DNA from: a virus
DNA: 64,000 bases
Reading direction: 5' to 3' (one strand)
Virus record (IMG/VR): IMGVR_UViG_3300020438_004021
Coordinates: 72,241 to 136,240 of that record
The stretch's first letter is position 1. The number at the start of each line of letters is the position of its first letter. This document shows, in pieces, positions 667 to 40,781 of the stretch. Below the pieces are notes generated by a model. It did no database searches, was not told the origin of the DNA, and worked only from the letters and a program-made list of their open reading frames with translations. The position numbers and the translations under genes were made by a program.

Positions 667-2049
667 ATGGCAACCAAGCAATCGAGACAAAATAGAGCTG
701 ACTTCATCAAAGCGATGAAGGAGGCAGGACTTACTTCACCTGTCACCCGTGAACAGGTCAGGGAAGTCTGCGATTCCACGGGCATCTATGCGGTTCCGCC
801 ATCATGGATTACGTACGATGCTTCCCGCAAGACCGGTGCTCTCGGCGAGTACCACATCCCAGAACTCTCCGAAGGTGCTACCACAACCGCACCCGCCAAG
901 GAGGCAGCACCCATGACTGCTACTATCGTCACCAATAAGGTGAAAACCGCTGATGTCTGCGATACCACTATGGCACTCGCAATGACTGGTGGTGAGAGCG
1001 AGACTCTCGTCCCAGAGCGAATCAGCACTTACGTTCCTTGGGGTCACTTCAAGGACATCGAGCAAATCATTCGTGCGAAGATGTTCTACCCTTGCTTCAT
1101 CACTGGTCTGTCCGGCAACGGCAAGACCACGATGGTTGACCAGGTTTGTGCGAAGCTCAAGCGAGAGCTGTTCCGCATCAACATCACTACTCAGACCGAT
1201 GAGGACGATTTGCTTGGTGGTTTCCGTCTCATCAACGGTGAGACCAAGTGGTGTGATGGTCCTGTCGTGAAGGCGATGAAGCAGGGTGGAATTCTTCTCC
1301 TCGACGAAATCGACCTTGCGTCACATGCAATCATGTGCCTGCAGCCGGTTCTGGAAGGCAAGGGTGTCTTCCTCAAGAAGATTGGTCAATGGGTCAAGCC
1401 CGCAGCCGGTTTCCAGATTTTCGCTACTGCCAATACCAAGGGTAAGGGCAGCGATGATGGTCGGTTCATCGGGACCAACGTTCTCAATGAGGCATTCCTC
1501 GACCGATTCTCAGTTTGCTTTGAGCAGGCATACGCTCCCAAGAAGGTGGAGCAGAAGATTCTCACCAAGGCGATGCAATCGCTCGACTGCGAGGACAAGG
1601 ACTTCACCAAGAAGCTGGTTGACTGGGCAGACATGATTCGTAAGTGCTTCTACGAGGATGCGGTTGATGAAATCATCACCACACGCCGTCTGGTCAACGT
1701 TGCTACGGCATTCTCCATCTTTGGTGACCGTGCCAAGGCAGTTGAGATGGCAGTCACCCGATTCGATGACTCCACCAAGGAGGCCTTCCTCACGATGTAC
1801 GGCAAGATTGATGCCGACACCATCGTGGGCGAGGAGGAGATGGAGGTGGTCGACTACGAAACCGCAGAACGTTTCGACATTGACGTGTCTTTTGACGACA
1901 AGGACGAAGCGAAGAGACTGGGTGCTAGGTGGGACGTTCCCAAGAAGCAGTGGTATGTCGAAGGCGACAAGTACCGCAAGAATCCCGAAAGATGGGTAAG
2001 ATGGAATCCGGTAGCCGTTTCTACCTCCTCCACTCCCGCACCGTTTTGA
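667..2049 (+). CDS. cobS: CobS/MoxR-family AAA+ ATPase with C-terminal DUF5710-like domain
   Basis: Walker A GLSGNGKT, Walker B LLLDEID, ATANTKGKG..GRF..LNEAFLDRF typical of T4-like phage CobS; C-terminal VSFDDKDEAKRLGARWD..KKQWYV resembles DUF5710. Confidence 0.9.
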   Translation: MATKQSRQNRADFIKAMKEAGLTSPVTREQVREVCDSTGIYAVPPSWITYDASRKTGALGEYHIPELSEGATTTAPAKEAAPMTATIVTNKVKTADVCDTTMALAMTGGESETLVPERISTYVPWGHFKDIEQIIRAKMFYPCFITGLSGNGKTTMVDQVCAKLKRELFRINITTQTDEDDLLGGFRLINGETKWCDGPVVKAMKQGGILLLDEIDLASHAIMCLQPVLEGKGVFLKKIGQWVKPAAGFQIFATANTKGKGSDDGRFIGTNVLNEAFLDRFSVCFEQAYAPKKVEQKILTKAMQSLDCEDKDFTKKLVDWADMIRKCFYEDAVDEIITTRRLVNVATAFSIFGDRAKAVEMAVTRFDDSTKEAFLTMYGKIDADTIVGEEEMEVVDYETAERFDIDVSFDDKDEAKRLGARWDVPKKQWYVEGDKYRKNPERWVRWNPVAVSTSSTPAPF

Positions 2050-2832: not shown

Positions 2833-2905
2833 AGGCTGGTAGCTCAGCGGTTAGAGCACCCGACTCATAATCGGTTAGTCGTCGGTTCGAATCCGACCCA
2901 GCCTA
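2833..2905 (+). tRNA. tRNA with CAT anticodon (Ile2-like or elongator Met)
   Basis: Acceptor AGGCTGG/CCAGCCT, D arm TAGCTCAG..AGAGC, loop CT-CAT-AA, T loop GGTTCGAATCC; no encoded CCA; GACTCATAATC arm resembles Ile2. Confidence 0.9.
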
Positions 2906-3993: not shown

Positions 3994-4308
3994 ATGAAAA
4001 TCATCGTTGAAGAAGAGTATGGTTATCGTTACTGGGTGTGGGAGCTTAAGGCATCCTCTAGGGTTGGTGTTGAAAGACACTTTAGTAAGACGACAGGTGC
4101 ATCGGGAGACGATTATTGGTATTGTACTGGAAAACCAGAGGACCACTTCACAATCGGCGAGTGGAAGCAGGTGGAGTTTCCAGAATACAAGGTCATGGTT
4201 GATAAAGATGATTATGATGCGGCTGCTCACATTCATCAGAACGATGACAGTTGGATTAGTTTTAGGGACGACCCAGTACACTGTATAGACACAGGAGAGG
4301 ACGTTTAA
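3994..4308 (+). CDS. Hypothetical protein
   Basis: Operon packing. Confidence 0.65.
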   Translation: MKIIVEEEYGYRYWVWELKASSRVGVERHFSKTTGASGDDYWYCTGKPEDHFTIGEWKQVEFPEYKVMVDKDDYDAAAHIHQNDDSWISFRDDPVHCIDTGEDV

Positions 4309-4889
4309 TGGCATTTAAAGTATTTGACGATTTCATCGATGAAGGATACCGAGACTTAGTAGAGAATATGATGCTTAACACGCACTGGATGTATCAAAAG
4401 CATATGGATTATGACAATGATAAGGTTCTGGTAGATGGTGCTGACTCCTATTCTCAGTTTTCAAGTGTCATTTTTCACCACGGTTCCGTTAGTAACAACC
4501 ACCTTCATGGCATCTTACTTCCAATGGTTAGTAAGGTGATTAATGAAGAGCTTAAAGGTTACGACCTAGCGAGGTCCAGAGCGATACTTCAGGTTCCTAA
4601 TGTAGCGAGACCCGAAATGTATGTGCCTCACATAGACTTCGATAGTAGATACATTATGAGCGTAATTTATTATGCTTGTGACTCTGACGGGGATACCGTA
4701 CTCTTCGAAGAATCTGGATTTGACGTTAGTATGGAGGATAGAGGAGAACATAGTTTCAAAGAGGTGGATAGGGTCTCCCCCAAGAAGGGCAGACTGGTGA
4801 TTTTTCCCTCAGACGAGTACCATTGTGGTTCTCCTCCCTCCAAGTCCAACAGAATGTTGGTTAATTTTAATTTTGAAAGGAATGCATGA
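4308..4889 (+). CDS. 2OG-Fe(II) oxygenase superfamily protein
   Basis: HxD (PHID), IYY..DSDGDT, PKKGRLVIF, distal His (EYH), R.LVNFNF. Confidence 0.85.
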   Translation: MAFKVFDDFIDEGYRDLVENMMLNTHWMYQKHMDYDNDKVLVDGADSYSQFSSVIFHHGSVSNNHLHGILLPMVSKVINEELKGYDLARSRAILQVPNVARPEMYVPHIDFDSRYIMSVIYYACDSDGDTVLFEESGFDVSMEDRGEHSFKEVDRVSPKKGRLVIFPSDEYHCGSPPSKSNRMLVNFNFERNA

Positions 4890-6098: not shown

Positions 6099-6171
6099 GG
6101 GAGTGTAGCTCAGTCGGTAGAGCATCGGTCTTTTAAACCGGTGGTCGTGGGTTCGAGTCCCACCGCTCCCA
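6099..6171 (+). tRNA. tRNA-Lys(TTT)
   Basis: Acceptor GGGAGTG/CGCTCCC, anticodon arm TCGGT-CT-TTT-AA-ACCGG, T arm GTGGG-TTCGAGT-CCCAC; no encoded CCA. Confidence 0.93.
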
Positions 6172-6192
6172 CTTGGGATTGACAATGAATAC

Positions 6193-7338: not shown

Positions 7339-7530
7339 ATGGCAAAACGAGTATGGGACAGATTTGACGAAGAAGCCGAGAGAGAAGGAGCCGCCTTCAC
7401 CAAGCAGGTAGTCACCCAAATTATAAAAGGTGGGGGTCGTGAAGGCAAGAAAATCCGAAAGCAGAGAAGCGGCATCCAAGCTGCTCTTAACCGTTCTGAA
7501 ATGCGTATTATGAGGAAATATCTAGTATGA
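7339..7530 (+). CDS. Small basic hypothetical protein
   Basis: GGAG SD downstream of the promoter. Confidence 0.7.
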   Translation: MAKRVWDRFDEEAEREGAAFTKQVVTQIIKGGGREGKKIRKQRSGIQAALNRSEMRIMRKYLV

Positions 7531-7742
7531 GTAAGTCTTGCCTAGACTGTGGAACCAATATTCCAGAAGCACGTTTGAGTGCAGTACCCGACACAGACTA
7601 CTGCGTGGGTTGTGTCGACAAGAATTCAAAGCCGGTTGTAGCCAGGTTGATTTTCAATCACAAGACAGCTGGTGAAGTATTCATCGCCAAGGGAAAAGAG
7701 AATGTGAGAATCCTAGAGAGGGAGTACTCAAGGGGCAGGTAA
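7527..7742 (+). CDS. TraR/DksA C4-type zinc-finger protein
   Basis: CxxCG..IP.ARL..VP....CxxC. Confidence 0.85.
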   Translation: MSKSCLDCGTNIPEARLSAVPDTDYCVGCVDKNSKPVVARLIFNHKTAGEVFIAKGKENVRILEREYSRGR

Positions 7743-8395: not shown

Positions 8396-9469
8396 ATGAT
8401 TGAGTCTGGTAAGGTGAATTTTCTTATTGATGGACAGTGGGGAAGCACTGGCAAGGGCAAACTTGCCGGTTACATGTATAGCAGATTTAAGAATCTGAAC
8501 ATGGCAATCAGTGATAATATGCCAAATGCGGGGCATACCTTTACACGCGATGGTAAGAACTTCATCTTTAAGGCCCTTCCTACCGGAGTTTTGTTCGATG
8601 AAGTGACATCTTTAATCGGTCCACAGGCAGTGATGGGTGAAGAGCAGTTCCAATATGAAATGGAGATGGTGAAGAACGAAATAGGTCACTATCCCAAGGT
8701 AATCATCCACCCAATGGCAACCGTTGTAACCGCCAGTGACAAAGATGCTGAAGCAGGAATCGTCAGCAAAATGGCAAGTACGGGTCAGGGTTCTTGTTCC
8801 GCTACCGTTAAGAAGATGTGGAGACGAGGAGAGGCAAACCTCGCCAAGAACAGCAAGGTGTTTGATGAATTCGTCGGTGATACCCATTCCTTCCTTCATG
8901 AAGGACTTAAGAAGGGTGGTGCTGCACTTTCGGAAGGTAGTCAAGGTTTTGACCTTTCAATGAATTGCGGACATGCCTACCCACACACGACGTCACGCGA
9001 TTGCTTGATCGGGAGAATGATGGACAATGCAGGATGCCCAGTCAAGTCTGTAGGTAGCATAATCGCTTGTCTAAGGACACTGCCAATTCGCGTTGGAAGC
9101 ACTGAGAACACGAGCGGTCCTTACTACGACGACCAGAATGAAATCGACTGGAAGACGGTATCCGATATGTGTGGTCATGATGTAGAAGAAAGAACTACAG
9201 TGACCCAGAGAGTTCGTAGAGTATTTACATTCTCGGAAGAACAGACTAGGAAGTTCTGCGAATTTGTTCGTCCGGATTATGCATTCCTTAACTTCGTTAA
9301 CTACTATAAGGAAGAGGGAGACCGACTCAATGCTGTCTCTGAAGTAGCGACAATTCTGGGTGAGTACGGTTGCGACCTTACACTACTAGGTACTGGTGCT
9401 GGACTAGACGATATGGAAATGACCAGCAACGAGCAAATCCTAGGCAAGCAGGAAACACTTTTTGCATGA
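8396..9469 (+). CDS. purZ: PurZ, N6-succino-2-amino-dAMP synthase (PurA paralog)
   Basis: GSTGKG (PurA has GDEGKG), NMPNAGHT, IHPMATV, STGQGS, EGSQG, YPHTTSRD, PIRVG..SG.Y.DQ.E..W, TTVTQRVRRVFTFS, FLNFVNY (PurA has TKLD); 357 aa. Confidence 0.9.
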   Translation: MIESGKVNFLIDGQWGSTGKGKLAGYMYSRFKNLNMAISDNMPNAGHTFTRDGKNFIFKALPTGVLFDEVTSLIGPQAVMGEEQFQYEMEMVKNEIGHYPKVIIHPMATVVTASDKDAEAGIVSKMASTGQGSCSATVKKMWRRGEANLAKNSKVFDEFVGDTHSFLHEGLKKGGAALSEGSQGFDLSMNCGHAYPHTTSRDCLIGRMMDNAGCPVKSVGSIIACLRTLPIRVGSTENTSGPYYDDQNEIDWKTVSDMCGHDVEERTTVTQRVRRVFTFSEEQTRKFCEFVRPDYAFLNFVNYYKEEGDRLNAVSEVATILGEYGCDLTLLGTGAGLDDMEMTSNEQILGKQETLFA

Positions 9470-10020
9470 TTCAGCACTGCGTAATAGGACAGGCTGGTAG
9501 TGGTAAGTCCACATTCATAGAGAAGAAATTCCCTAGGGACGAACACATCTTCTTTGATACGGGTAGCATGCTTAGAAGCATGTTTACCTGTCTCAAGGGG
9601 GAACAGACTAGCAAGAACGTTTGGGATTTTGCAAATCCGTTGGTATATAGTGTTTACAAGCAGTGCTGCACTGTTTCAGAGAACACCGGTTATGAGTTCA
9701 TAACTGACGGTTTCCCTAGGAACTCATCTCAAGTTAAGAATATGCATATGTTTTTGACTTCTCTACCCCATAGCAATTCTATCATATTCCATATGCTGGA
9801 CATTTCAGAAGAAGAGCAGATTAGGAGGATAGAGAAGAGAAATGGAAAGATGAGCGACTATCATATTGATAGGATATCACAGTCTAGGAGAGACTTCGAG
9901 TCTGTATTGGATGAACTAGACAGGATTATGAGTAGCAGCACTGCGAACAGAACCTTAATAGAGATAAAGTGGTATAAGCAAGAAGATGGTGATTTCGTTC
10001 TGGACAGAAGTTATAAATAG
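9466..10020 (+). CDS. Adenylate kinase-like nucleoside monophosphate kinase
   Basis: P-loop GQAGSGKST, TGSMLR, DGFPRN..Q; ATGA overlap with the purZ stop. Confidence 0.85.
   Translation: MIQHCVIGQAGSGKSTFIEKKFPRDEHIFFDTGSMLRSMFTCLKGEQTSKNVWDFANPLVYSVYKQCCTVSENTGYEFITDGFPRNSSQVKNMHMFLTSLPHSNSIIFHMLDISEEEQIRRIEKRNGKMSDYHIDRISQSRRDFESVLDELDRIMSSSTANRTLIEIKWYKQEDGDFVLDRSYK
10012..10019 (+). promoter_or_regulatory. T4-type late promoter
   Basis: TATAAATA just upstream of the AGGAG SD. Confidence 0.7.
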
Positions 10021-10035
10021 TCAGGAGATTTACCT

Positions 10036-10587
10036 ATGGCATCATTCAACTATGAAATTCCAGACGAATACTTAGAAAATGCATCCGACTTCGGGTTTAC
10101 TACGGTAGACTCCGATGCTGTAGAACAACAAGAAAGAGATGTAGCCGAAGAAGTAGCGGGTGAAATATCATCAAATCTTATTGGTCAGATTAGCACCAAG
10201 ATTAGCGGTCTAGAAGGAAAAATCAATTCTGTCCTTCTTAAAATGCAAGATGAAACAGATGAAGACAATGTAGCAGGTGAAATAAATCTGGTTAGGATAG
10301 AAGAGAAGATAGATAAGATTCTTGCTATGGAAAATGAAGAACTTGCCAGTAGCATACAAGCACAAGGTGAGAGCATCCGTGCAGTCATAGATGAAGTAGA
10401 AGAGAGAAAAAGCACACTAGAAGACCAATACCTAGATAAAATGAAGGAAATTGAAAAACTGGTCTTACCTCTATTGGTTAATCTGACCAAGAATCCAGAA
10501 AGAGAGTACCTCTTCTGGCCTGATAGGTCTGAAAAAGTCAATAAGCAGATAGGAAAAGTCCTTTCTATTACAAGAAATGCCGAATAA
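10036..10587 (+). CDS. Coiled-coil hypothetical protein of T4-like phages
   Basis: DFGFTTVD...LPLL.NL.KNPE..Y..WP.R motif. Confidence 0.75.
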   Translation: MASFNYEIPDEYLENASDFGFTTVDSDAVEQQERDVAEEVAGEISSNLIGQISTKISGLEGKINSVLLKMQDETDEDNVAGEINLVRIEEKIDKILAMENEELASSIQAQGESIRAVIDEVEERKSTLEDQYLDKMKEIEKLVLPLLVNLTKNPEREYLFWPDRSEKVNKQIGKVLSITRNAE

Positions 10588-11257
10588 AAAATTCACCCAT
10601 CTATCCAATAAGATAACCGAGGATATAGATGCCGTCACCAACAAGGACGGTTCTAGATTCTACCAAGCACCCAATGGTGAGAAATACCCCAGTGTCACCA
10701 CAGTCACTGGTTGGGAGAAGAAGGCTTTCTTCGCTGAATGGAGGAGGAAGAACCCCAAGGAATCTAAAAGGGTTCTGTCCGTAGGAACCAGTATGCACCA
10801 GGTAGTAGAAGATTTCTTAGATAATAAAGAAACCTACCTCGATGGTGCATCTCAATCTGCCATTAATCTTTTTCAGTACATGAAGCCTGTCCTGATAGAG
10901 AAGATAGATAATATCAAAGCACAAGAAGTCGCCCTATGGAGTAGTTTATTGGGGTTGGCAGGAAGGGTGGATTGTGTTGCTGAATATGATGGTAAGTTGT
11001 CCATCATAGATTTTAAGAGCAGCAGAAGAGAGAAGAAAGAAGAATATATAGGCAACTACTTCGCTCAGGCTACCGCATATGCCATAATGTGGAAAGAGTT
11101 AACTGGTGAGCAAATAGACCAGATAGTTATACTGATATCTTGTGAAGATGGTAGTGTCCAGCAATTCATAGATAAACCAGTAAATCACGTAAAAACGCTC
11201 AAAGAGATGATAGACAAGTACTATCAGAGTCAGGCACTATCGGAGTATTTAGGTTAA
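10577..11257 (+). CDS. PD-(D/E)XK exonuclease
   Basis: YPSVTTV, GT.MH, AGRVDC, IIDFKSS, YF.Q..AYA. Confidence 0.9.
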   Translation: MPNKKFTHLSNKITEDIDAVTNKDGSRFYQAPNGEKYPSVTTVTGWEKKAFFAEWRRKNPKESKRVLSVGTSMHQVVEDFLDNKETYLDGASQSAINLFQYMKPVLIEKIDNIKAQEVALWSSLLGLAGRVDCVAEYDGKLSIIDFKSSRREKKEEYIGNYFAQATAYAIMWKELTGEQIDQIVILISCEDGSVQQFIDKPVNHVKTLKEMIDKYYQSQALSEYLG

Positions 11258-12474
11258 GACCTAGGGACGGTTCTCTTAAAAGTGACATCGATACACGGTC
11301 TAAAGTCTACACGACTATCATTCACCGAATATATCTCCATCATGTGTCTCCAATGGGTGTAATACCCATCTAGAGAACCTTGACCATCTACATGCTCGGT
11401 ATTGGTATCATCGTTGCCAATGAACACCATTCTCAGATCTCCCGTTCTGCTATCTATGCAATCCTGAACGAGAGAAGTAACATCCACCTTGACCTCAGGG
11501 ACCGCAGGTATCGTTCCTAGAGAACCTGCGATTCTCACCCTAGCACCACCTACTGATGGTTTTATCCCTATCATGGCTCCGGTTGTGATTCCACCACCAG
11601 TATCTAATGTAACACCCGTTTCATCACCAGTTCGTCCTGCATCGTCGTCAGGACCTATAGTAACCCCATTGCTGGTATCGTCGTCAGGTTGGTCTGGGAG
11701 TTCGTTTCCATCCCCAAATGGTTTCACACCTAACCAACAATGTCCCAATGGGCTGGCATTCGTTATGTCGGCTGAATTGGTAGCACCAGAAGAATCTCCA
11801 CCGCTTGAACCCCAATAGGCATCAGCAGTTGGAGCACCTTTGAAATGATACCAACCCATAGTATCCATAGAACCAGCAGTCCACCCATTGCTAGCGCCTT
11901 GAACGTTAGCATTCCTAGTACCTCTATAAATGCAATATATTCTGTCTGCTATTGCATAAGTAGCACCACCATCATAGAAGGGTACGTGGTGACCCCATAC
12001 TTTATGGATTTTAAGACTTAATGTAGCACTAACGATGGTATCTCCACCTGTCAGTCCATAAGTTCCACCACCACCAGGATCTGTTGGGTCGTTTGGATTA
12101 CCTGGTGGACCCCAGTCGCTGACATTGGTGTACCAAAAAATTCTAGCAGCTGGAGTTGCTAATTCATAAGCATCACCGAATTCTTGTTCTCCCCACATAT
12201 CTTTGGTCATATAATATCTGGCAGCCGCTCCCAGTTGGAGAATGGCATCAGAACTAGCACCCAATGCTGTCCTATGTAGGTGGAAATCGTTGAAGTAAGT
12301 CTGAGATGTGGGTCCAGTAGCACCATCAATTATTTGTATATCTCGAACATAGGTGTCTTCGTTAGGGTAAAGTCTCACCTTAGCGGTTACTTCAGTCCCA
12401 CCGTCACCACCATCATCTGGTTTGTTGACTTCAGCCTGTCTTCTTTTAGTTAATCTGTGCCTTGCTCGACTCAT
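11254..12474 (-). CDS. Putative virion protein with DNRLRE-like domain
   Basis: EDTYV...IVSATLSL...DVTSLVQ...RPCIDVTF pattern; G/T-rich. Confidence 0.55.
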   Translation of the reverse strand: MSRARHRLTKRRQAEVNKPDDGGDGGTEVTAKVRLYPNEDTYVRDIQIIDGATGPTSQTYFNDFHLHRTALGASSDAILQLGAAARYYMTKDMWGEQEFGDAYELATPAARIFWYTNVSDWGPPGNPNDPTDPGGGGTYGLTGGDTIVSATLSLKIHKVWGHHVPFYDGGATYAIADRIYCIYRGTRNANVQGASNGWTAGSMDTMGWYHFKGAPTADAYWGSSGGDSSGATNSADITNASPLGHCWLGVKPFGDGNELPDQPDDDTSNGVTIGPDDDAGRTGDETGVTLDTGGGITTGAMIGIKPSVGGARVRIAGSLGTIPAVPEVKVDVTSLVQDCIDSRTGDLRMVFIGNDDTNTEHVDGQGSLDGYYTHWRHMMEIYSVNDSRVDFRPCIDVTFKRTVPRS

Positions 12475-12499
12475 ATTTCACATACCTCATGGGTTATTA

Positions 12500-13297
12500 T
12501 CATGTACCAACTATTCTAATGTCCGCAGTGCCGGTCCCTGTGCAGGTTGCTCTAATTCCGTTAGAGTTGGATGCCTCGATAAAGAGACTATCAAATGCTT
12601 GTAGAGCATACCCATTATTGGCACTAGTGATTCCGGTGTCGAATGTACACCCAATGAATGCAGTAGCAGGACCGAAGTTAGTGATTCTGAATCCTGTGGC
12701 AAATGTCCTTGCGGGCAATGTTTGCTGTGCCACTGCTGTAGAACCTGTTGATTTCTGTGCGAAAAGGAAACCGGTAGTGAAACCGGTGCTGTTACTTGGG
12801 TGTGTAGAAGGTATTGCTACTGTAAGAACGTCAACGTCACCGATATTATTAGTACTGGCGGCTAGTTTAACATCACCAGTGATCTGGGCAGTGATTCCTA
12901 GCAGTCCACTTGATGCCACGGAGATGGTAGCACCATCTGCAAACCCTTTAACAGTGCTGACAAAATCTAGAGTACCACCCACCACCTTGTCGAGAGTGCC
13001 ACCACCAATAGTCACATTCGATACATCGAACGATGCACCACCAGTAATTAGGACTTGTACGGGGAGTGTACCTGAGGTGTTACCCGCTACTGGTATGGAA
13101 CCAAATCCGGCTGCATTGGTATGCATGATTGGGACAGGGGCTGCATTGGTCATCAAGGAGTCAACGCCATCGCCTCCGGTGTTGATCTTAATTTCTTGAA
13201 AATGCCCTACATTATCCCCACCATAGTCAGTCGCCAAGGTTGCTCCGACAGGACTTGTCGATGTAATTTGAATATTATCAGATGTTAGTTGTGCCAT
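12500..13297 (-). CDS. Putative virion structural/fibre protein
   Basis: G/S/T-rich, beta-strand-like; GGAG SD. Confidence 0.6.
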   Translation of the reverse strand: MAQLTSDNIQITSTSPVGATLATDYGGDNVGHFQEIKINTGGDGVDSLMTNAAPVPIMHTNAAGFGSIPVAGNTSGTLPVQVLITGGASFDVSNVTIGGGTLDKVVGGTLDFVSTVKGFADGATISVASSGLLGITAQITGDVKLAASTNNIGDVDVLTVAIPSTHPSNSTGFTTGFLFAQKSTGSTAVAQQTLPARTFATGFRITNFGPATAFIGCTFDTGITSANNGYALQAFDSLFIEASNSNGIRATCTGTGTADIRIVGT

Positions 13298-35711: not shown

Positions 35712-38700
35712 ATGCCATATTCCCAGACACCTTATGATTCAAATCTGTTTAATAAGAGTCCTTATTACGACGACTTCAGTGAAGACAAGAAGTTCCTCAG
35801 GACACTTTTCAGACCCGGTTATGCTGTTCAGGCAAGAGAACTGACACAGCTACAAACTGTTCTACAATCTCAGCTCGAAAGAATGGGGACCCATATATTT
35901 GAAAATGGTGCGGTCATTGCGGGTGGTGGTATTGCAGAATCTAATATCGCCTATGCTAGACTTGGAACAGCAGATGCCCTAAGCACTTCTAATCTAAACA
36001 GGCTCATCAATCAGAACATTTCAAATGATTCTGGTGTAAATGCTAGAATCCTCCACGTACTAGACGGTTCTACTTTGGATATTGACCCGTCTCAGGTGGT
36101 ATTCTTCCAGTTCACTTCCAATGGTGGATTTGTAGAAGGAAGCACTTTAGGGACTACTGGTGCTAATAGTGCCGGTCTAACGTTCTCTATTGCAGCTGCT
36201 GGTAACACCGCACCATCTGTTGGCAATGATGCAATGATATTCAGTGTGGACGAGGGTGTTTACTACGTAGACGGGTACTTCGTCAAGAACGATAAGCAAG
36301 TCACAGTTCCATTTTATGAAGCAGGTTCCTGTGCAGATAATAATGACCACAGATATAGAGGATTCGTCAGTCCAACATCTTCAGTAGGTTGGAACATATC
36401 CAGAACTATAGTCACTGCCAATGATGACGAGTCCCTAAAAGACCCAGCGGCCGGTTTCTATAACCAGAACGCACCTGGTGCAGATAGATACAAGATAGAC
36501 CTATCATTAGGTCACAAGGGTTTCACGTCATCTCTAGGAAGTGCTTCCGGACTCACCTTCGATGACCAAGACTTCATCGAGCTTGTGAGGATAATCGGTG
36601 GCAGTAGTACAAAGACAGTCAAATATACTGACTATGCAGAGATTGAAGAGACATTCGCAAGAAGGACATTCGACGAATCCGGCAACTTCACGGTGGGTGC
36701 ACCTAAGATCAGGATAACCACCCATGATGCTGCCTTTACTCCCGCAGACAGCAGTAAATTCGCGGTAGGGGTAGAACCAAATAAATCTTATGTTGGTGGT
36801 TTTGAGGTCGATACCCAAAGCACGGCCTACCTAGAGGTAGACAAGGCGAGAGATATTGGAAAGATACCACCATATTTCGAGCAACTCAACTCTCAACTGG
36901 GTAACTATGTATTCATAGAACCTAGCGGTGGTGGTGTTTATGGTGGTGGATGGGGTTCCGGTACTAGTGCCGATAATTCGTTCTCTGCCAATTCTATAGA
37001 CAAACAATACTCTTACAGCATCTATAAAGAAGACGTACACACAGCACCAGAAATTGGTCCAACACTAGGAAGTTGTAATGTTAGATCCATTGCCAGAGAA
37101 GGTGATGACCTCAAACTATACCTCTTCAACATCAAGATGGCAATTGGAGAAGATGGTACACCAAATAACTTCACAGATGCCCAATACATAGTATCCCATG
37201 ACCCCGTTCAGGGTGGTACTGGTGGAACTGGTTCCTACTTCAAGGTGAAAACGGATAGCAGTGGTTTCATTGGTCCCCATGATGCTGGAAACAAGACATT
37301 GGTATTCCCAGTCTCCCAAAATAAGGTAGTGACTGAGACTGGACCTGGTAAACAACTAGACACAGCATCTACTTTCACCGTACTAGAGACCCATGACGTT
37401 CACTTCACCAACGGAAAATCTACGGCAATTGTGTCATTAGAAGATGGTAAGCAGTTCTTAGGCAGTGACGATGAAGATGTCTTAGTTTGGTTTGGAGCAA
37501 CTGCCTCTGATTCAGGTTTAGATGCCGGATACACTGCTGACTTGCTACCTTTGAGTCAGTTCAGGTGGACCAGTTACGGTAGTAGAGGTCAACTAGAGCT
37601 ATTGGAAGGTCTAGACGCCCCCTCAGCAGGTGCTACCGCTACGATGGTGTTACCAGTAATGTATGACTCCGAAAGAGTGGTGGGAGACGTTTATAGAACT
37701 CTTACCACAACAACTGGGTCGGTAGTTGGTGCAATATCCGATGCGGTGGTGTTCCATGAAGGTGCTACTTGTGCTAGGTTCAAACTAGACAACTCTCACA
37801 TCAAATCGATAGATACGGTCGCCGATGGAAGTGGAGTTAAACCATCCACAAGTTATTTCTTTGATGATGGTCAGAGACAATCAGGATTTTATAAAGGTCA
37901 GGTATTTGTACCGACCAATGTCCTATCAGGTAACGACACAGATGGTTATGTTGCTAATATTAGCTATTCTTACTACTCCCATACTGGTAAGGGTCCAATC
38001 ACAGTAAACAGTTATCCAGTAGGGTATGAGCAAATACCCGAGTTCACAGACACGGAAAGCGGTAGACTGTACAGACTTAGGAACTGCATTGACTTCCGAC
38101 CGGTAGAAGATAGCGATGGTACTTTCAGCAGCTTTGGAATTCCTTTCTATAAGTATAACCGGTCTTATAGCAAGATCAGTTACAACTACTATATGCCTAG
38201 AATAGACAAGGTATGCTTATGCAGGGATAGGACCTATAGGTTGATTAAAGGTGTAAGTTCAATCGAACCACAAGCACCAGAGACTACTAGCGATGACATG
38301 GACCTATACCTGATTAAGATAAGTCCATACGTTTTCGACCTTAATAGGGACGTGACTGCCAAATATATCGACAATAAGAGATTCACTATGAGGCAGATTA
38401 GTGAAATTGAGAACCAAGTTGAGAAGGTCGACCAAGAAAGATATCTAGACAGACTCTACTCAGATGCTGTCGCCAAGGGCAACGCTGATGTAGGAACTGG
38501 AATCAATGAATCTATTATGGTAGATGATTTTAGTAGTCACGCATTCGCAGACGTTACTAATAGAGACCACAACTGCAGTATGGATACCTCTTTCAGGGGT
38601 CTTCTTCCACCGAAGGTTACCAGTGTTTACAACTTCGCAAGCGGTTCAATTCCATCTGGAATGACATTAACCGAGGGCAGACATGTCGTTTATGACTTCC

Positions 38701-40781
38701 AAGAGGTACAGGTAGTGGGTGGCAACACCGGAACTGCCACTCTAGCGGTAAATCCATTCGGAAGTACAGATTTCTTGGGTCACATGAGTCTTAACCCATC
38801 TTCAGACATCTATTACGACACCAGCAAGAACGGTCAGGTAATTGTAAACTCATTTGGAGAAAACAACCTATACAAAACGGTAGGCAAATCTTGGACTCAA
38901 GGTAGAACAGCTGGTTGGGGTGGTGAAGACAATGAATGGATAAACAGGTGGTTGGGAAGCGAAGACTTATCTGAAAAATCCCAAGCAGAAGTGGATCATA
39001 CGGAGAGAGATTATAGACTACCCAATAAGGTTGCTAGGGTCAAACTTCCAGACAGGATTCTCAGAACCGCAGGCGATAGAACTGTTGATGAGAGTGTAGT
39101 ACCTTATGCTAGATCTAAGGGATTCACATTTGAGGCAACAGGTCTTCTACCTGGTTCCACGGTATACGCAATCCTAGATAATACCTTGGTGGGTGCTTCA
39201 GGCACTGGTTACGCAGTTAGTAGTCAGGGTGGTGTTTCAGGACACATCGAAGTTGATAACTCATTCCTATCTGGACCAATAAGTTTCAGAGTGTCGGACA
39301 GCAATACCAACACGTTAAGTTCTACAAACACAGCAGCCGATTGTAAGTTCTACTCTCAGGGACTGCTGGATACTAGGAATTCTACAATCGTTTCTACTAG
39401 GACACCTCAGGCGAGGAGAAAGTCCGTTGCCAGTGAGAGTGTAATTGATGGTCCGTTCTTAAATGTAGTCGACGGCAATTTCTCTTCTGTACAAAACGGT
39501 TTAGACCCATTAGCACAAGAGATTTCGGTAGATGCTGGCACATTCCCCCAAGGAGTGTTCTTGAGAAGTATTGACCTATTCTTCAATCAGGTTGATCCTA
39601 ACGTACCAGTGAACATTCATATTAGACCGATGATAAATGGTGCTCCACATGATTTCTTAGTCCTACCAGACTCCGAAATCACTGTAAAACCCACGGTTGT
39701 TGGAGATGGACCTCAGTTCTCACAGAATACGAACTTTAAGTTCAAAAACCCCGTATTCCTACCACCTGGTAACTGGGCAGTGTGCATAAGCAGTAACAGT
39801 GCCGATAACATATTATTCTTATCTGAGATAGGTGGTATATGGTTAGATTCTAACGGAGCACAGAATACCGACTCCTATGAGGTAACCGGTGCTAACGGGA
39901 ATGGTATCAGACTGAAGGGTATCCTTAAACCCCTGAACAACGGCAGCAGAACCAAAGAATCTGGTCAGAACCTAATGATGGGCATAAACAGATGTCAATT
40001 CGTCGGTGGGGCATCCGAAGCACCAGATAGAACGGCATCATTCAATCTCACCATACCATCCGGTAGCACTGGAGCAGGACTGATTGCCAATGTTATATCT
40101 AACAAGCAGTTGTTCACCGATTCTGATATTAGACCGACATACAACCTACAGATGGGCAATCAATCGTATAACGGTGTGGTTCCCAATAAAGATATTGTTC
40201 TAGATCAAAGGCATTTCGTGAATTCATCTTCACAGCAAAGTCTAGACGTTATATTTGGTTCCACCACAACCAACAATGTGTCTCCTGTGGTAGACATGGA
40301 CAGGTTGGGTCTACTGATAGCGGACAGTGCTCTTAGAGCATCTATGACGCCGGGTGATACTGGTTTCAGGGTAGGAGAGACACAGAATAATTCCTCAGCC
40401 GCTAGAACCTATGCCAGATATGTCAGCAAGAAGATTACCTTCGGGAATTCTATTGCAGACGACATCAGGGTCTTCCTAGATGTTGCACCAAATGAAGGGA
40501 ATGTCAAAGTGTTTGTTAAATTGGGAACTTCTGGAGAAGATTTCGATGACTTGGATTACGTCCAACTATATAATGATGGGGACAGCAGTTCGGAATCTGA
40601 GTGGTTCGATTCGGGAAGTCAACTACTTACAAGTTATTCCTTCAAACCAGCAGCGGGGACTTCGATAGGAGAATTCTCCTCTTATGCAGTAAAGATTGTA
40701 ATCAGCAAGAGTCAATCTACAATCACAGAAGACAAGTTGCCAATCATTAAAGATTTGAGAGCGATAGCTATCAAGAACTGA
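35712..40781 (+). CDS. Large virion structural protein (DUF4815/VrlC-like)
   Basis: PYYDDF, LFRPG.AVQARELTQLQ, APGADR, RRTFDESG, DPLAQ. Confidence 0.88.
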   Translation: MPYSQTPYDSNLFNKSPYYDDFSEDKKFLRTLFRPGYAVQARELTQLQTVLQSQLERMGTHIFENGAVIAGGGIAESNIAYARLGTADALSTSNLNRLINQNISNDSGVNARILHVLDGSTLDIDPSQVVFFQFTSNGGFVEGSTLGTTGANSAGLTFSIAAAGNTAPSVGNDAMIFSVDEGVYYVDGYFVKNDKQVTVPFYEAGSCADNNDHRYRGFVSPTSSVGWNISRTIVTANDDESLKDPAAGFYNQNAPGADRYKIDLSLGHKGFTSSLGSASGLTFDDQDFIELVRIIGGSSTKTVKYTDYAEIEETFARRTFDESGNFTVGAPKIRITTHDAAFTPADSSKFAVGVEPNKSYVGGFEVDTQSTAYLEVDKARDIGKIPPYFEQLNSQLGNYVFIEPSGGGVYGGGWGSGTSADNSFSANSIDKQYSYSIYKEDVHTAPEIGPTLGSCNVRSIAREGDDLKLYLFNIKMAIGEDGTPNNFTDAQYIVSHDPVQGGTGGTGSYFKVKTDSSGFIGPHDAGNKTLVFPVSQNKVVTETGPGKQLDTASTFTVLETHDVHFTNGKSTAIVSLEDGKQFLGSDDEDVLVWFGATASDSGLDAGYTADLLPLSQFRWTSYGSRGQLELLEGLDAPSAGATATMVLPVMYDSERVVGDVYRTLTTTTGSVVGAISDAVVFHEGATCARFKLDNSHIKSIDTVADGSGVKPSTSYFFDDGQRQSGFYKGQVFVPTNVLSGNDTDGYVANISYSYYSHTGKGPITVNSYPVGYEQIPEFTDTESGRLYRLRNCIDFRPVEDSDGTFSSFGIPFYKYNRSYSKISYNYYMPRIDKVCLCRDRTYRLIKGVSSIEPQAPETTSDDMDLYLIKISPYVFDLNRDVTAKYIDNKRFTMRQISEIENQVEKVDQERYLDRLYSDAVAKGNADVGTGINESIMVDDFSSHAFADVTNRDHNCSMDTSFRGLLPPKVTSVYNFASGSIPSGMTLTEGRHVVYDFQEVQVVGGNTGTATLAVNPFGSTDFLGHMSLNPSSDIYYDTSKNGQVIVNSFGENNLYKTVGKSWTQGRTAGWGGEDNEWINRWLGSEDLSEKSQAEVDHTERDYRLPNKVARVKLPDRILRTAGDRTVDESVVPYARSKGFTFEATGLLPGSTVYAILDNTLVGASGTGYAVSSQGGVSGHIEVDNSFLSGPISFRVSDSNTNTLSSTNTAADCKFYSQGLLDTRNSTIVSTRTPQARRKSVASESVIDGPFLNVVDGNFSSVQNGLDPLAQEISVDAGTFPQGVFLRSIDLFFNQVDPNVPVNIHIRPMINGAPHDFLVLPDSEITVKPTVVGDGPQFSQNTNFKFKNPVFLPPGNWAVCISSNSADNILFLSEIGGIWLDSNGAQNTDSYEVTGANGNGIRLKGILKPLNNGSRTKESGQNLMMGINRCQFVGGASEAPDRTASFNLTIPSGSTGAGLIANVISNKQLFTDSDIRPTYNLQMGNQSYNGVVPNKDIVLDQRHFVNSSSQQSLDVIFGSTTTNNVSPVVDMDRLGLLIADSALRASMTPGDTGFRVGETQNNSSAARTYARYVSKKITFGNSIADDIRVFLDVAPNEGNVKVFVKLGTSGEDFDDLDYVQLYNDGDSSSESEWFDSGSQLLTSYSFKPAAGTSIGEFSSYAVKIVISKSQSTITEDKLPIIKDLRAIAIKN

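What the first reader, a model, noticed from the sequence alone, without database searches (positions are those of the whole stretch)
9466..10020. Adenylate-kinase-like gene coupled to purZ: candidate dZMP kinase
Seen: ATGA overlap with the purZ stop, P-loop GQAGSGKST and the AK signature DGFPRN. Known: in described Z pathways host PurB and host kinases complete dZTP synthesis. Inference: a phage-encoded AK-fold kinase in the same operon could phosphorylate dZMP and define a different Z module.
Basis: partly seen in the sequence, partly recalled or inferred. Interest (0 to 1): 0.75.

Follow-up and report, generated by a model that had tools for sequence, protein, structure and literature searches.

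The report
Adenylate-kinase-like gene coupled to phage purZ
A small kinase gene overlaps the end of the gene that starts 2-aminoadenine (Z) DNA-base synthesis in a T4-like marine phage; it is probably the phage's own kinase for the Z nucleotide, a step so far credited to host enzymes.

Summary
ORF 9466-10020 (184 aa) starts in an ATGA overlap with the stop of a PurZ-type gene (8396-9469). It carries GQAGSGKST and DGFPRNxxQ, passes Pfam's ADK threshold and folds as a short-LID adenylate/UMP-CMP-type kinase (pLDDT 89).

The pairing is conserved. All 10 IMG/VR loci, and all 23 metagenome loci with enough upstream sequence, have purZ directly upstream. Among 80 PurZ loci surveyed, 17 have an AK-like gene immediately downstream. 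With the window these PurZ form one clade of 18 (SH-aLRT 99), sister to the phiVC8-type PurZ clade.

The host record is a 136-kb T4-like phage with a family-B polymerase, its own PurB and a Dut. No DatZ-type HD enzyme, MazG, PolA or T4 gp1-type kinase was found in it. No phage record in the isolate/GenBank collection searched has the kinase, and the papers I could read assign dZMP phosphorylation to host enzymes.

Best reading (0.55): a dZMP-to-dZDP kinase that defines a distinct Z module. The substrate is inferred, not shown. I class it as a new variant of a known kind; interest 0.7.

The parts
8396..9469 (+). purZ-type gene (357 aa), N6-succino-2-amino-2'-deoxyadenylate synthase-like
   Evidence: NF038379 211.7 bits. 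phiVC8 PurZ PDB chains E 6.8e-55. Keeps Ser17 (= S14 of phiVC8 PurZ; Asp13 in E. coli PurA), TTVT, FLNFxNY, W252, Y244 and I34. Falls in the PurZ part of the tree.
9466..10020 (+). AK-fold NMP kinase gene (184 aa), candidate dZMP kinase
   Evidence: Pfam ADK 33.1 bits against cut-off 26.8. Model pLDDT 89.1. Foldseek best matches are AK1-type adenylate kinases and UMP/CMP kinases, TM 0.5-0.63. purZ lies directly upstream in every related locus that can be judged.
9466..9469 (+). ATGA start/stop overlap (translational coupling)
   Evidence: Sequence. The same 4-nt ATGA or GTGA overlap occurs in 16 of 21 junctions examined; 3 more overlap by 8 nt, 1 has a 6-nt gap and 1 copy looks broken.
9487..9513 (+). 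P-loop GQAGSGKST (residues 8-16)
   Evidence: Invariant in 28 of 28 aligned homologues. Aligns with the E. coli Adk P-loop.
9562..9576 (+). NMP-binding motif G33-S-M-L-R37
   Evidence: G33, L36 and R37 are invariant. The motif aligns with TGDMLR of E. coli Adk, whose R36 I recall as an AMP-phosphate ligand.
9616..9648 (+). Family-specific segment N51-V-W53-D-F-A56-N-P58-L-V60-Y61 in the NMP-binding domain
   Evidence: N51, W53, A56, P58, V60 and Y61 are invariant in the family. The stretch differs from E. coli Adk. Lower model confidence here, block means 67-75.
9706..9732 (+). DGFPRNSSQ (residues 81-89): acceptor-site Arg85 and Gln89
   Evidence: D81, G82, P84, R85 and Q89 are invariant in the family and in distant relatives, and in the PurZ-linked kinases of L070-L077. 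The motif aligns with DGFPRTIPQ of E. coli Adk, R88 and Q92.
9826..9888 (+). Short LID-like region R121-x3-R125 ... Y132 ... R136 ... S140-R141
   Evidence: R121, R125, Y132, R136, S140 and R141 are invariant. R121 and R125 align with R119 and R123 of E. coli Adk. The remaining arginines cannot be matched one to one.
10036..10587 (+). Next ORF on the same strand (183 aa, acidic, no family match)
   Evidence: Only 15 nt after the kinase stop, with AGGAG before its ATG. No Pfam, NCBIfam or PHROG match.
10577..11257 (+). PD-(D/E)XK exonuclease gene, overlapping the previous ORF
   Evidence: PF12705 E 1e-8. phrog_298 exonuclease E 1.7e-60.

Best explanation
ORF 9466-10020 encodes a divergent adenylate-kinase-fold nucleoside-monophosphate kinase, made in step with PurZ through a start/stop overlap. 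Proposed pathway: PurZ condenses dGMP with aspartate to give dSMP. The phage's own PurB (outside the window, G000:C1:2188-3642) releases dZMP. This kinase transfers the gamma-phosphate of ATP to dZMP to give dZDP. A nucleoside-diphosphate kinase, none of which was identified on the phage, makes dZTP for the phage's family-B polymerase. Shown: the gene, its fold, its catalytic motifs, its strict linkage to one PurZ clade, and the make-up of the module. Inferred: the acceptor substrate, and a preference for dZMP over dAMP.
For: (1) AK-family fold and motifs: Pfam ADK above its threshold; Foldseek probability 1.00 to AK1 and UMP/CMP kinases; P-loop, R37, R85, Q89, R121 and R125 align with E. coli Adk K13, R36, R88, Q92, R119 and R123.
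(2) Gln89 sits four residues after the DGFPR arginine, as in adenylate kinases, whereas the aligned UMP/CMP kinase has Asn there. That this Gln reads the N1/N6 face of adenine is recalled knowledge. Z has the same face.
(3) Linkage: purZ is directly upstream in 10 of 10 IMG/VR loci and in 23 of 23 metagenome family loci with at least 200 nt upstream. The 4-nt overlap occurs in 16 of 21 junctions.
(4) Depth of the pairing: 17 of 80 surveyed PurZ loci carry an AK-like ORF immediately downstream. Their PurZ, with the window's, form one clade of 18 of 18, SH-aLRT 99, needing one change of the label. The kinases are only 20-26% identical to this one, yet score 44-62 bits on the family profile against 18 bits for E. 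coli Adk.
(5) The neighbour is a PurZ by signature residues and by position between Wayne PurZ0 and phiVC8 PurZ.
(6) The phage has its own PurB (TIGR00928, 331.5 bits against cut-off 326.2), present in 3 of 3 large related contigs.
(7) No other small NMP kinase was found in the 136-kb record: no phmmer match to T4 gp1, and no other short P-loop ORF. The T4 record itself states that gp1 is not active on dAMP.
(8) The papers read assign dZMP phosphorylation to host or uncharacterised enzymes.
(9) Weak hint of expression: contigs from RNA libraries at 99% identity or more lie on purZ, across the junction (9387-9537, 9433-9583) and on the kinase gene. DNA carry-over in those libraries is not excluded.
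Against: No substrate was tested or modelled. Gln89 fits dAMP or AMP as well as dZMP, so an ordinary adenylate kinase cannot be told apart by sequence. All NCBIfam adenylate-kinase models are far under their cut-offs (38.6 against 168), and the LID arginines cannot be mapped one to one, so even kinase competence is inferred. That this phage's DNA contains Z is unproven. No DatZ-type HD enzyme or MazG was found, so how dATP would be excluded is unknown. The record is only about 75% complete, so absences are provisional. PurB is encoded about 78 kb away from purZ in the record, not in the same operon. The founding papers (Zhou 2021, Sleiman 2021, Tong 2023) were not held, and supplements are closed, so an earlier mention of such a kinase cannot be excluded.
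Confidence: 0.55

Rival explanations
1. It is a general (deoxy)adenylate kinase. It phosphorylates AMP or dAMP, or interconverts ADP, ATP and AMP. That would raise adenine-nucleotide turnover, for example by recycling the ADP that PurZ produces, with no special preference for dZMP.
For: It belongs to the AK family and has the adenine-type Gln at the acceptor site. The ESM Atlas neighbours are all adenylate-kinase clusters.
Against: The family is found only directly downstream of purZ and in no phage without it: 0 matches in 50,697 phage records. A dAMP kinase would work against A exclusion in a Z phage. The family has its own invariant NMP-domain residues (N51, W53, A56, P58, Y61) that E. coli Adk lacks.
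Confidence: 0.2
2. It works in reverse as a supplier of dGMP for PurZ (dGDP + ADP to dGMP + ATP). In that role it would replace the missing MazZ-type dGTP pyrophosphatase.
For: No MazG was found in this lineage. The DUF550 search found nothing either, but its control also found nothing, so it is uninformative. NMP kinases are reversible (general knowledge). The gene sits next to the dGMP-consuming enzyme.
Against: The acceptor-site Gln is of the adenine type. GMP kinases belong to another family (general knowledge). Every tested genome of the clade has a Dut-family gene that could supply dGMP, as DutZ does (PMC12884076, discussion read).
Confidence: 0.08
3. The three genes form an adenylate-synthesis auxiliary module (IMP to adenylosuccinate to AMP to ADP). 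On this reading the upstream enzyme is a PurA, not a PurZ, and the kinase is a plain AMP kinase.
For: PurA-like, PurB and AK together make up that textbook pathway. The PurZ model score is under its curated cut-off (211.7 against 300). No DatZ or MazG was found.
Against: Ser replaces the catalytic Asp13 of PurA in 10 of 10 aligned clade members. Five further PurZ-marker residues are kept; the other three that I checked (F12, P144, S273) are replaced by W, G and T. The sequence scores far better against PurZ than against PurA (189.8 against 52 bits). The clade lies between PurZ0 and PurZ on the tree rooted with E. coli PurA.
Confidence: 0.07
4. It is not a metabolic kinase. It would be a P-loop partner that regulates or stabilises PurZ, or a kinase of another substrate such as a polynucleotide 5' end.
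For: Start/stop coupling is common for subunits of one complex. Polynucleotide kinases appear lower in the fold list (4gp6, 4jt2). The C-terminus is a beta-hairpin with invariant W169 and F177 instead of the usual AK helices.
Against: The best-conserved part across the whole PurZ-linked group is the NMP acceptor site, G33-R37 and DGFPR-x3-Q. That argues for a mononucleotide substrate.
Confidence: 0.07

Closest known systems
Short-LID adenylate kinases (AK1 type) and eukaryote-type UMP/CMP kinases (Pfam PF00406)
   Same: Same fold (Foldseek E about 1e-7, TM up to 0.63). Shares the P-loop, the GxxLR motif, the DGFPR motif with Gln four residues after the Arg as in adenylate kinases, and an RxxxR LID entry.
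   Different: Only 16-21% identical. All curated adenylate-kinase equivalog models are far below their cut-offs. It has its own invariant N51/W53/A56/P58/Y61 segment and a C-terminal beta-hairpin with W169 and F177. It occurs only next to purZ.
Classical Z cluster of S-2L and phiVC8 (PurZ, DatZ, MazZ, with or without DpoZ)
   Same: A PurZ-type enzyme with the dGMP-specific signature residues.
   Different: phiVC8 has DatZ and PolA beside PurZ and no kinase. This phage has the kinase, PurB, a Dut and a family-B polymerase; no DatZ, MazG or PolA was found. The papers read say the later steps are done by the host (PMC8342488 passages, PMC12884076 introduction).
PurZ0 modules of Arthrobacter phage Wayne and Gordonia phage Ghobes (PurZ0, DutZ, DmtZ, DUF5664)
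   Same: A Dut-family gene goes with PurZ in place of DatZ. In L072 and L075-L077 the Dut-like ORF lies directly after the kinase. This phage also has an NDT-superfamily gene (DUF4406).
   Different: Wayne has no AK-like gene; the gene after its PurZ0 has no P-loop. Here the Dut's best matches are ordinary dUTPases of distant T4-like phages. The PurZ clade is separate from Wayne PurZ0.
Phage kinases for non-canonical or phage-specific nucleotides: T4 gp1 dNMP kinase, and the dUMP kinase induced by PBS1/PBS2
   Same: The same logic: a phage supplies the monophosphate kinase its unusual DNA needs (T4 record annotation; PMC12697855 introduction passage).
   Different: No sequence relation to T4 gp1 (no phmmer match). 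The T4 record says gp1 does not act on dAMP. The present enzyme has an adenine-type acceptor site.

Membership tests
Adenylate kinase / NMP kinase family (PF00406) | Walker A P-loop GxxGxGK[ST] at the N-terminus | tested here: met
   GQAGSGKST, residues 8-16, invariant in 28 of 28 homologues. Aligns with the E. coli Adk P-loop.
Adenylate kinase / NMP kinase family (PF00406) | Score above the family's curated threshold | tested here: met
   PF00406 scores 33.1 bits against 26.8. The stricter NCBIfam adenylate-kinase models are not met (best 38.6 against 168).
Adenylate kinase / NMP kinase family (PF00406) | Three-domain AK fold (core, NMP-binding domain, LID) | tested here: met
   Model pLDDT 89.1. 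Foldseek probability 1.00 to AK1 and UMP/CMP kinase chains, TM 0.5-0.63. The C-terminal hairpin is atypical.
Adenylate kinase / NMP kinase family (PF00406) | Acceptor-site arginines (E. coli R36, R88) and the base-reading residue four positions after DGFPR (Gln in adenylate kinases) | tested here: met
   R37, R85 and Q89 are invariant and aligned. The roles of these residues are recalled knowledge.
Adenylate kinase / NMP kinase family (PF00406) | LID arginines (E. coli R123, R156, R167) | tested here: inconclusive
   R125 aligns with R123. R136 and R141 are invariant but cannot be matched one to one, and Tyr132 sits where one alignment puts the LID Arg.
Adenylate kinase / NMP kinase family (PF00406) | ATP:AMP phosphotransferase activity | not testable with these tools
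   Needs an enzyme assay.
PurZ (the upstream partner) | Ser in place of PurA's Asp13, plus the other PurZ-marker residues (phiVC8 numbering S14, T262, F295, Y298, W252, Y244, I34) | tested here: met
   All seven are kept. F12, P144 and S273 are replaced by W, G and T.
PurZ (the upstream partner) | Curated NCBIfam PurZ cut-off | tested here: not met
   211.7 bits against 300. PurZ is still the best-scoring family, ahead of archaeal-type PurA at 137 bits.
PurZ (the upstream partner) | Position within the PurZ/PurZ0 radiation rather than with PurA | tested here: met
   In the tree rooted on E. coli PurA, Wayne PurZ0 branches first, followed by the AK-linked clade and the phiVC8-type clade. Only one PurA and no archaeal PurA were included.
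Classical Z cluster (PurZ + DatZ + MazZ, with or without DpoZ) | HD-family dATP triphosphohydrolase DatZ | tested here: not met
   PF01966, PF13023 and PF12917 give no match in G000. PF12917 rings in phiVC8 as a control, and not in G001, G006 (100% complete) or G008 (98% complete). phmmer with phiVC8 DatZ gives no match.
Classical Z cluster (PurZ + DatZ + MazZ, with or without DpoZ) | MazG or DUF550 (d)GTP pyrophosphatase MazZ | tested here: inconclusive
   PF03819 gives no match. PF04447 gives no match, but its control rang nowhere, so it is uninformative. DUF5664 was not searched.
Classical Z cluster (PurZ + DatZ + MazZ, with or without DpoZ) | Family-A polymerase DpoZ | tested here: not met
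   No PF00476 match in G000, which has a family-B polymerase. PolA is present in G006, G007 and G008 of the same PurZ clade.
T4 gp1-type dNMP kinase | Sequence similarity to T4 gp1 | tested here: not met
   phmmer of T4 gp1 against all six-frame ORFs of the 136-kb record gives no match at E up to 10.

The most novel reading that the evidence does not exclude
A whole PurZ lineage carries a dedicated dZMP kinase. The lineage is found in T4-like marine phages with family-B polymerases, in a complete 262-kb jumbo phage and in small high-GC phages. With a phage PurB, these phages would have a host-independent route from dGMP to dZDP. That would be a different way of excluding adenine from that of the S-2L and phiVC8 systems, and it would extend Z-DNA to T4-like marine myoviruses.
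Probability: 0.3. Interest if true: 0.85.

Novelty: new variant of a known kind. Interest (0 to 1): 0.7.

Why it matters
In every paper I could read, the steps from dSMP to dZTP are left to host or uncharacterised enzymes. A phage-encoded dZMP kinase would fill that gap. It would be a useful part for engineering Z-DNA synthesis in cells whose own kinases handle dZMP poorly. It would also mark out a separate, uncultured branch of Z-type phages. That branch includes T4-like marine phages that replicate with a family-B polymerase and lack the dATP-clearing enzyme DatZ, which raises the question of how, and how completely, they replace A. The window's stretch recurs almost word for word in 14 DNA runs, though every one is flagged as a possible source of the window, so this is not independent evidence that the lineage is common.

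Tried and rejected
- tblastn of the kinase, and of a high-GC relative, against 50,697 phage records gave no match. blastn of the region gave none either. No cultured phage could therefore be used for annotation.
- A single-sequence IMG/VR scan found nothing; the alignment-based scan was needed.
- The PF04447 search is uninformative because its control found nothing anywhere.
- Four distant AK-like loci (L045-L048, 25-32% identity) have no purZ by tblastn or by profile. I treat them as other AK-family genes, outside the PurZ-linked group.
- The longer TTG start at 9370 was rejected.
- I checked whether the phage Dut is a DutZ. Its best matches are ordinary dUTPases of distant T4-like phages, so nothing can be claimed.
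- RNA-library contigs cover only parts of the stretch at depth 2-5. Uncovered parts mean nothing, and DNA carry-over is possible.
- Zhou 2021 and Tong 2023 were not held. Sleiman 2021 was not requested. Supplements are closed, so the lists of Pfam domains associated with dZ contigs in the 2025 preprint could not be checked for ADK.
Full report
**1. The observation**

ORF 9466-10020 on the plus strand encodes 184 residues. Its ATG (9466-9468) overlaps the TGA (9467-9469) of ORF 8396-9469, giving ATGA. An AGGA lies 12 nt upstream of the ATG. GQAGSGKST is residues 8-16 and DGFPRN is residues 81-86.

The protein passes Pfam's adenylate-kinase threshold: PF00406 scores 33.1 bits against 26.8, E 7.5e-8. 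It is far below every curated NCBIfam adenylate-kinase model (best 38.6 against 168).

The best sequence matches among solved structures are weak: Dictyostelium UMP/CMP kinase at E 0.002 and human AK1 at E 0.0035. An AlphaFold2 model built on 28 homologues has mean pLDDT 89.1 and pTM 0.85. Foldseek matches it to short AK1-type adenylate kinases and UMP/CMP kinases, with E about 1e-7, TM up to 0.63 and 16-21% identity. ESM Atlas neighbours are all adenylate-kinase clusters. It is a real, very divergent AK-fold kinase.

**2. The upstream gene is a PurZ**

- It scores best on the NCBIfam PurZ model: 211.7 bits, under the cut-off of 300, against 137 for archaeal-type PurA.
- It matches phrog_1211 at E 4.7e-61.
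- It matches phiVC8 PurZ structures at E 6.8e-55, S-2L PurZ at 2.3e-29, Pyrococcus PurA at 8e-24 and E. coli PurA at 4e-13.
- A 2025 preprint (section 4 read) lists residues that separate PurZ from PurA. I checked ten of them. Seven are kept: S14, T262, F295, Y298, W252, Y244 and I34. Three are replaced: F12 by W, P144 by G and S273 by T. All ten aligned clade members have Ser where E. coli PurA has Asp13.

**3. The genome**

The window is bases 72241-136240 of a 136,240-bp virus record, estimated 75% complete. It is T4-like. It encodes:

- replication and recombination proteins: gp46/47-like nuclease, RNase H, gp45 clamp, gp44/62 clamp loader, RegA, a family-B polymerase, UvsX, a gp41-type helicase and gp32;
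- baseplate proteins;
- nucleotide-metabolism enzymes: ThyX and a class II RTPR-like reductase.

It also encodes an adenylosuccinate lyase at G000:C1:2188-3642 (TIGR00928, 331.5 bits against cut-off 326.2). This gene is present in 3 of 3 large related contigs and was not found in 2 short fragments. A Dut-family gene is present as well (TIGR00576, 109.1 against 102.55).

Not found in the record:

- HD-family enzymes (PF01966, PF13023, PF12917), although PF12917 does detect DatZ in phiVC8 as a control;
- any phmmer match to phiVC8 DatZ;
- MazG;
- PolA;
- a T4 gp1-type dNMP kinase;
- any other short P-loop ORF.

The PF04447 search is uninformative because its control found nothing.

**4. The pairing is conserved**

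The kinase has 39 homologues at 41-99% identity. In an exhaustive search of 1.84 billion representatives, only 3 score below E 1e-30, and the next best drop to 92 bits or less. The family is narrow.

- All 10 IMG/VR loci have purZ directly upstream; one is cut by the contig end.
- Of 27 family-level metagenome loci, 23 have purZ directly upstream. The other 4 have at most 153 nt upstream and cannot be judged. Some metagenome loci are the same contigs as IMG/VR loci.
- Four distant AK-like hits (25-32% identity) have no purZ.
- The junction is a 4-nt ATGA or GTGA overlap in 16 of 21 cases. It is an 8-nt overlap in 3 and a 6-nt gap in 1, and one copy looks broken.
- PurZ is 66-92% identical across these loci, while the kinase is only 44-84% identical.

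**5. The pairing is older than this phage group**

I surveyed 80 PurZ loci from IMG/VR with the family profile. It found an AK-like ORF immediately downstream of purZ in 17 of them. One more locus is cut inside purZ. The other 62 have none within the fetched flanks.

In a PurZ tree of 82 rows (2 partial rows dropped; E. coli PurA as root), the 18 AK-linked PurZ, including the window's, form one clade with SH-aLRT 99. This clade is sister to the 61-row clade that holds phiVC8 PurZ, and Wayne PurZ0 lies outside both.

The more distant partners (L070-L077) are only 20-26% identical to this kinase. They keep the P-loop and DGFPR-x3-Q, and all but L072 (Lys) keep the GxxxR arginine. They score 44-62 bits on the family profile, against 18 bits for E. 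coli Adk.

These loci lie in very different genomes: a complete 262-kb record that has PurB, a 98%-complete 41.6-kb high-GC record without PurB, and a 19-kb AT-rich contig. All of these have a Dut-family gene and PolA, and none has an HD_3 or YfbR-type gene. In L072 and L075-L077 the order is PurZ, kinase, Dut-like, and in L072, L075 and L076 a helicase-sized ORF follows. phiVC8 and Wayne have no such kinase.

**6. Mechanism**

Against E. coli Adk, the following residues align: K14, R37, R85, Q89, R121 and R125 with K13, R36, R88, Q92, R119 and R123. The Gln four residues after the DGFPR arginine is the adenylate-kinase state; the aligned UMP/CMP kinase has Asn there. That this Gln reads N1 and N6 of adenine is recalled knowledge. 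Z shares that face.

Across the whole PurZ-linked group, the acceptor site is the best-conserved part. Family-specific invariant residues (N51, W53, A56, P58, Y61) lie in the NMP-binding domain. I could not model what they contact.

Strict linkage to PurZ, an adenine-type acceptor site and the absence of any other NMP kinase together point to one reading. The enzyme takes the PurZ/PurB product dZMP to dZDP. This is an inference, and I give it 0.55.

**7. Literature**

Searches for PurZ together with kinase, adenylate kinase, guanylate kinase, dZMP, PurB or Z-genome found no paper describing a PurZ-linked kinase. Neither did a search for aminoadenine with monophosphate kinase.

- PMC8342488 (passages read) says the enzymes for dSMP to dZMP to dZTP were not found on the phage genomes.
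- PMC12884076 (sections 19, 25 and 26 and passages read) says host enzymes or uncharacterised phage proteins do these steps. The word 'kinase' does not occur in its main text.
- The 2025 preprint names host PurB and GMP kinase.
- Zhou 2021 and Tong 2023 were not held, Sleiman 2021 was not requested, and supplements are closed.

**8. Other evidence**

The stretch recurs almost word for word in 14 DNA runs from estuary, marine and viral metagenomes. All 14 are flagged as possible sources of the window, so they are not independent support. Contigs from RNA libraries at 99% identity or more lie on purZ, across the junction and on the kinase gene, at depth 2-5. DNA carry-over is not excluded.

**9. 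Verdict**

It is a new variant of a known kind: a Z-DNA module with its own kinase.

Noticed in passing
G000:C1:10244-10657 (outside the window): A DUF4406 gene (nucleoside 2-deoxyribosyltransferase-like superfamily) sits between the gp45 clamp and gp44 clamp-loader genes. NDT-family enzymes (DmtZ) were recently tied to Z metabolism in PurZ0 phages (PMC12884076). Its phage matches are widespread and not specific to Z phages.
   Followed up: partly
G000:C1:26323-26916 (outside the window): A Dut-family gene with an N-terminal extension of about 80 residues lies about 400 nt upstream of the family-B polymerase gene, with one small ORF between them. Every tested genome of the AK-linked PurZ clade has a Dut-family gene, and in L072 and L075-L077 the Dut-like ORF directly follows the kinase. 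Whether it is a DutZ-type dATP/dGTP pyrophosphatase is open.
   Followed up: partly
G000:C1:16354-25676 (outside the window): A run of sugar-nucleotide and polysaccharide biosynthesis genes in a T4-like phage: Polysacc_synt_2 dehydratase, HAD hydrolase, nucleotidyltransferase, fucosyltransferase-like GT10, DegT aminotransferase, epimerases, a methyltransferase and a GT2.
   Followed up: no
G000:C1:34082-35179 and 38280-39449 (outside the window): A GlnII-type glutamine synthetase gene (411 bits, under the cut-off of 500) and an ORF with a weak match to phosphate-selective porin O/P. Both are possible auxiliary metabolic genes.
   Followed up: no
window 2833-2905 and 6099-6172: tRNA-Met (CAT) and tRNA-Lys (TTT) genes upstream of the purZ operon.
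   Followed up: no
window 667-2049, 4308-4889, 7527-7742: A MoxR/CbbQ-type AAA_5 ATPase with a C-terminal DUF5710, a 2OG-Fe(II) oxygenase and a DksA/TraR zinc-finger protein, all on the same strand upstream of purZ.
   Followed up: no
L043:4980-5563: In one metagenome relative the kinase ORF is short at its N-terminus (136 aa, 172-nt gap after purZ). This may be a broken copy or an assembly error.
   Followed up: no
L070 (G005) and L071 (G006): Identical PurZ sequences with the same kinase ORF coordinates (the kinase sequences were not compared) occur in a 93.6-kb record classed as a provirus and in a 262.65-kb record rated 100% complete. The latter would be a jumbo phage with PurZ, an AK-like kinase, PurB, a Dut and PolA.
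   Followed up: partly
L086 (370.8-kb contig): A PurZ-like gene on a 370-kb viral contig branches outside both the AK-linked clade and the phiVC8-type clade, on a long branch. No AK-like gene lies within 5 kb.
   Followed up: no
window 11254-13297 (minus strand): Two ORFs (406 and 265 aa), rich in Gly, Thr and Asp, with no match in PHROGs (the only library searched for them), lie between the exonuclease gene and gp32.
   Followed up: no
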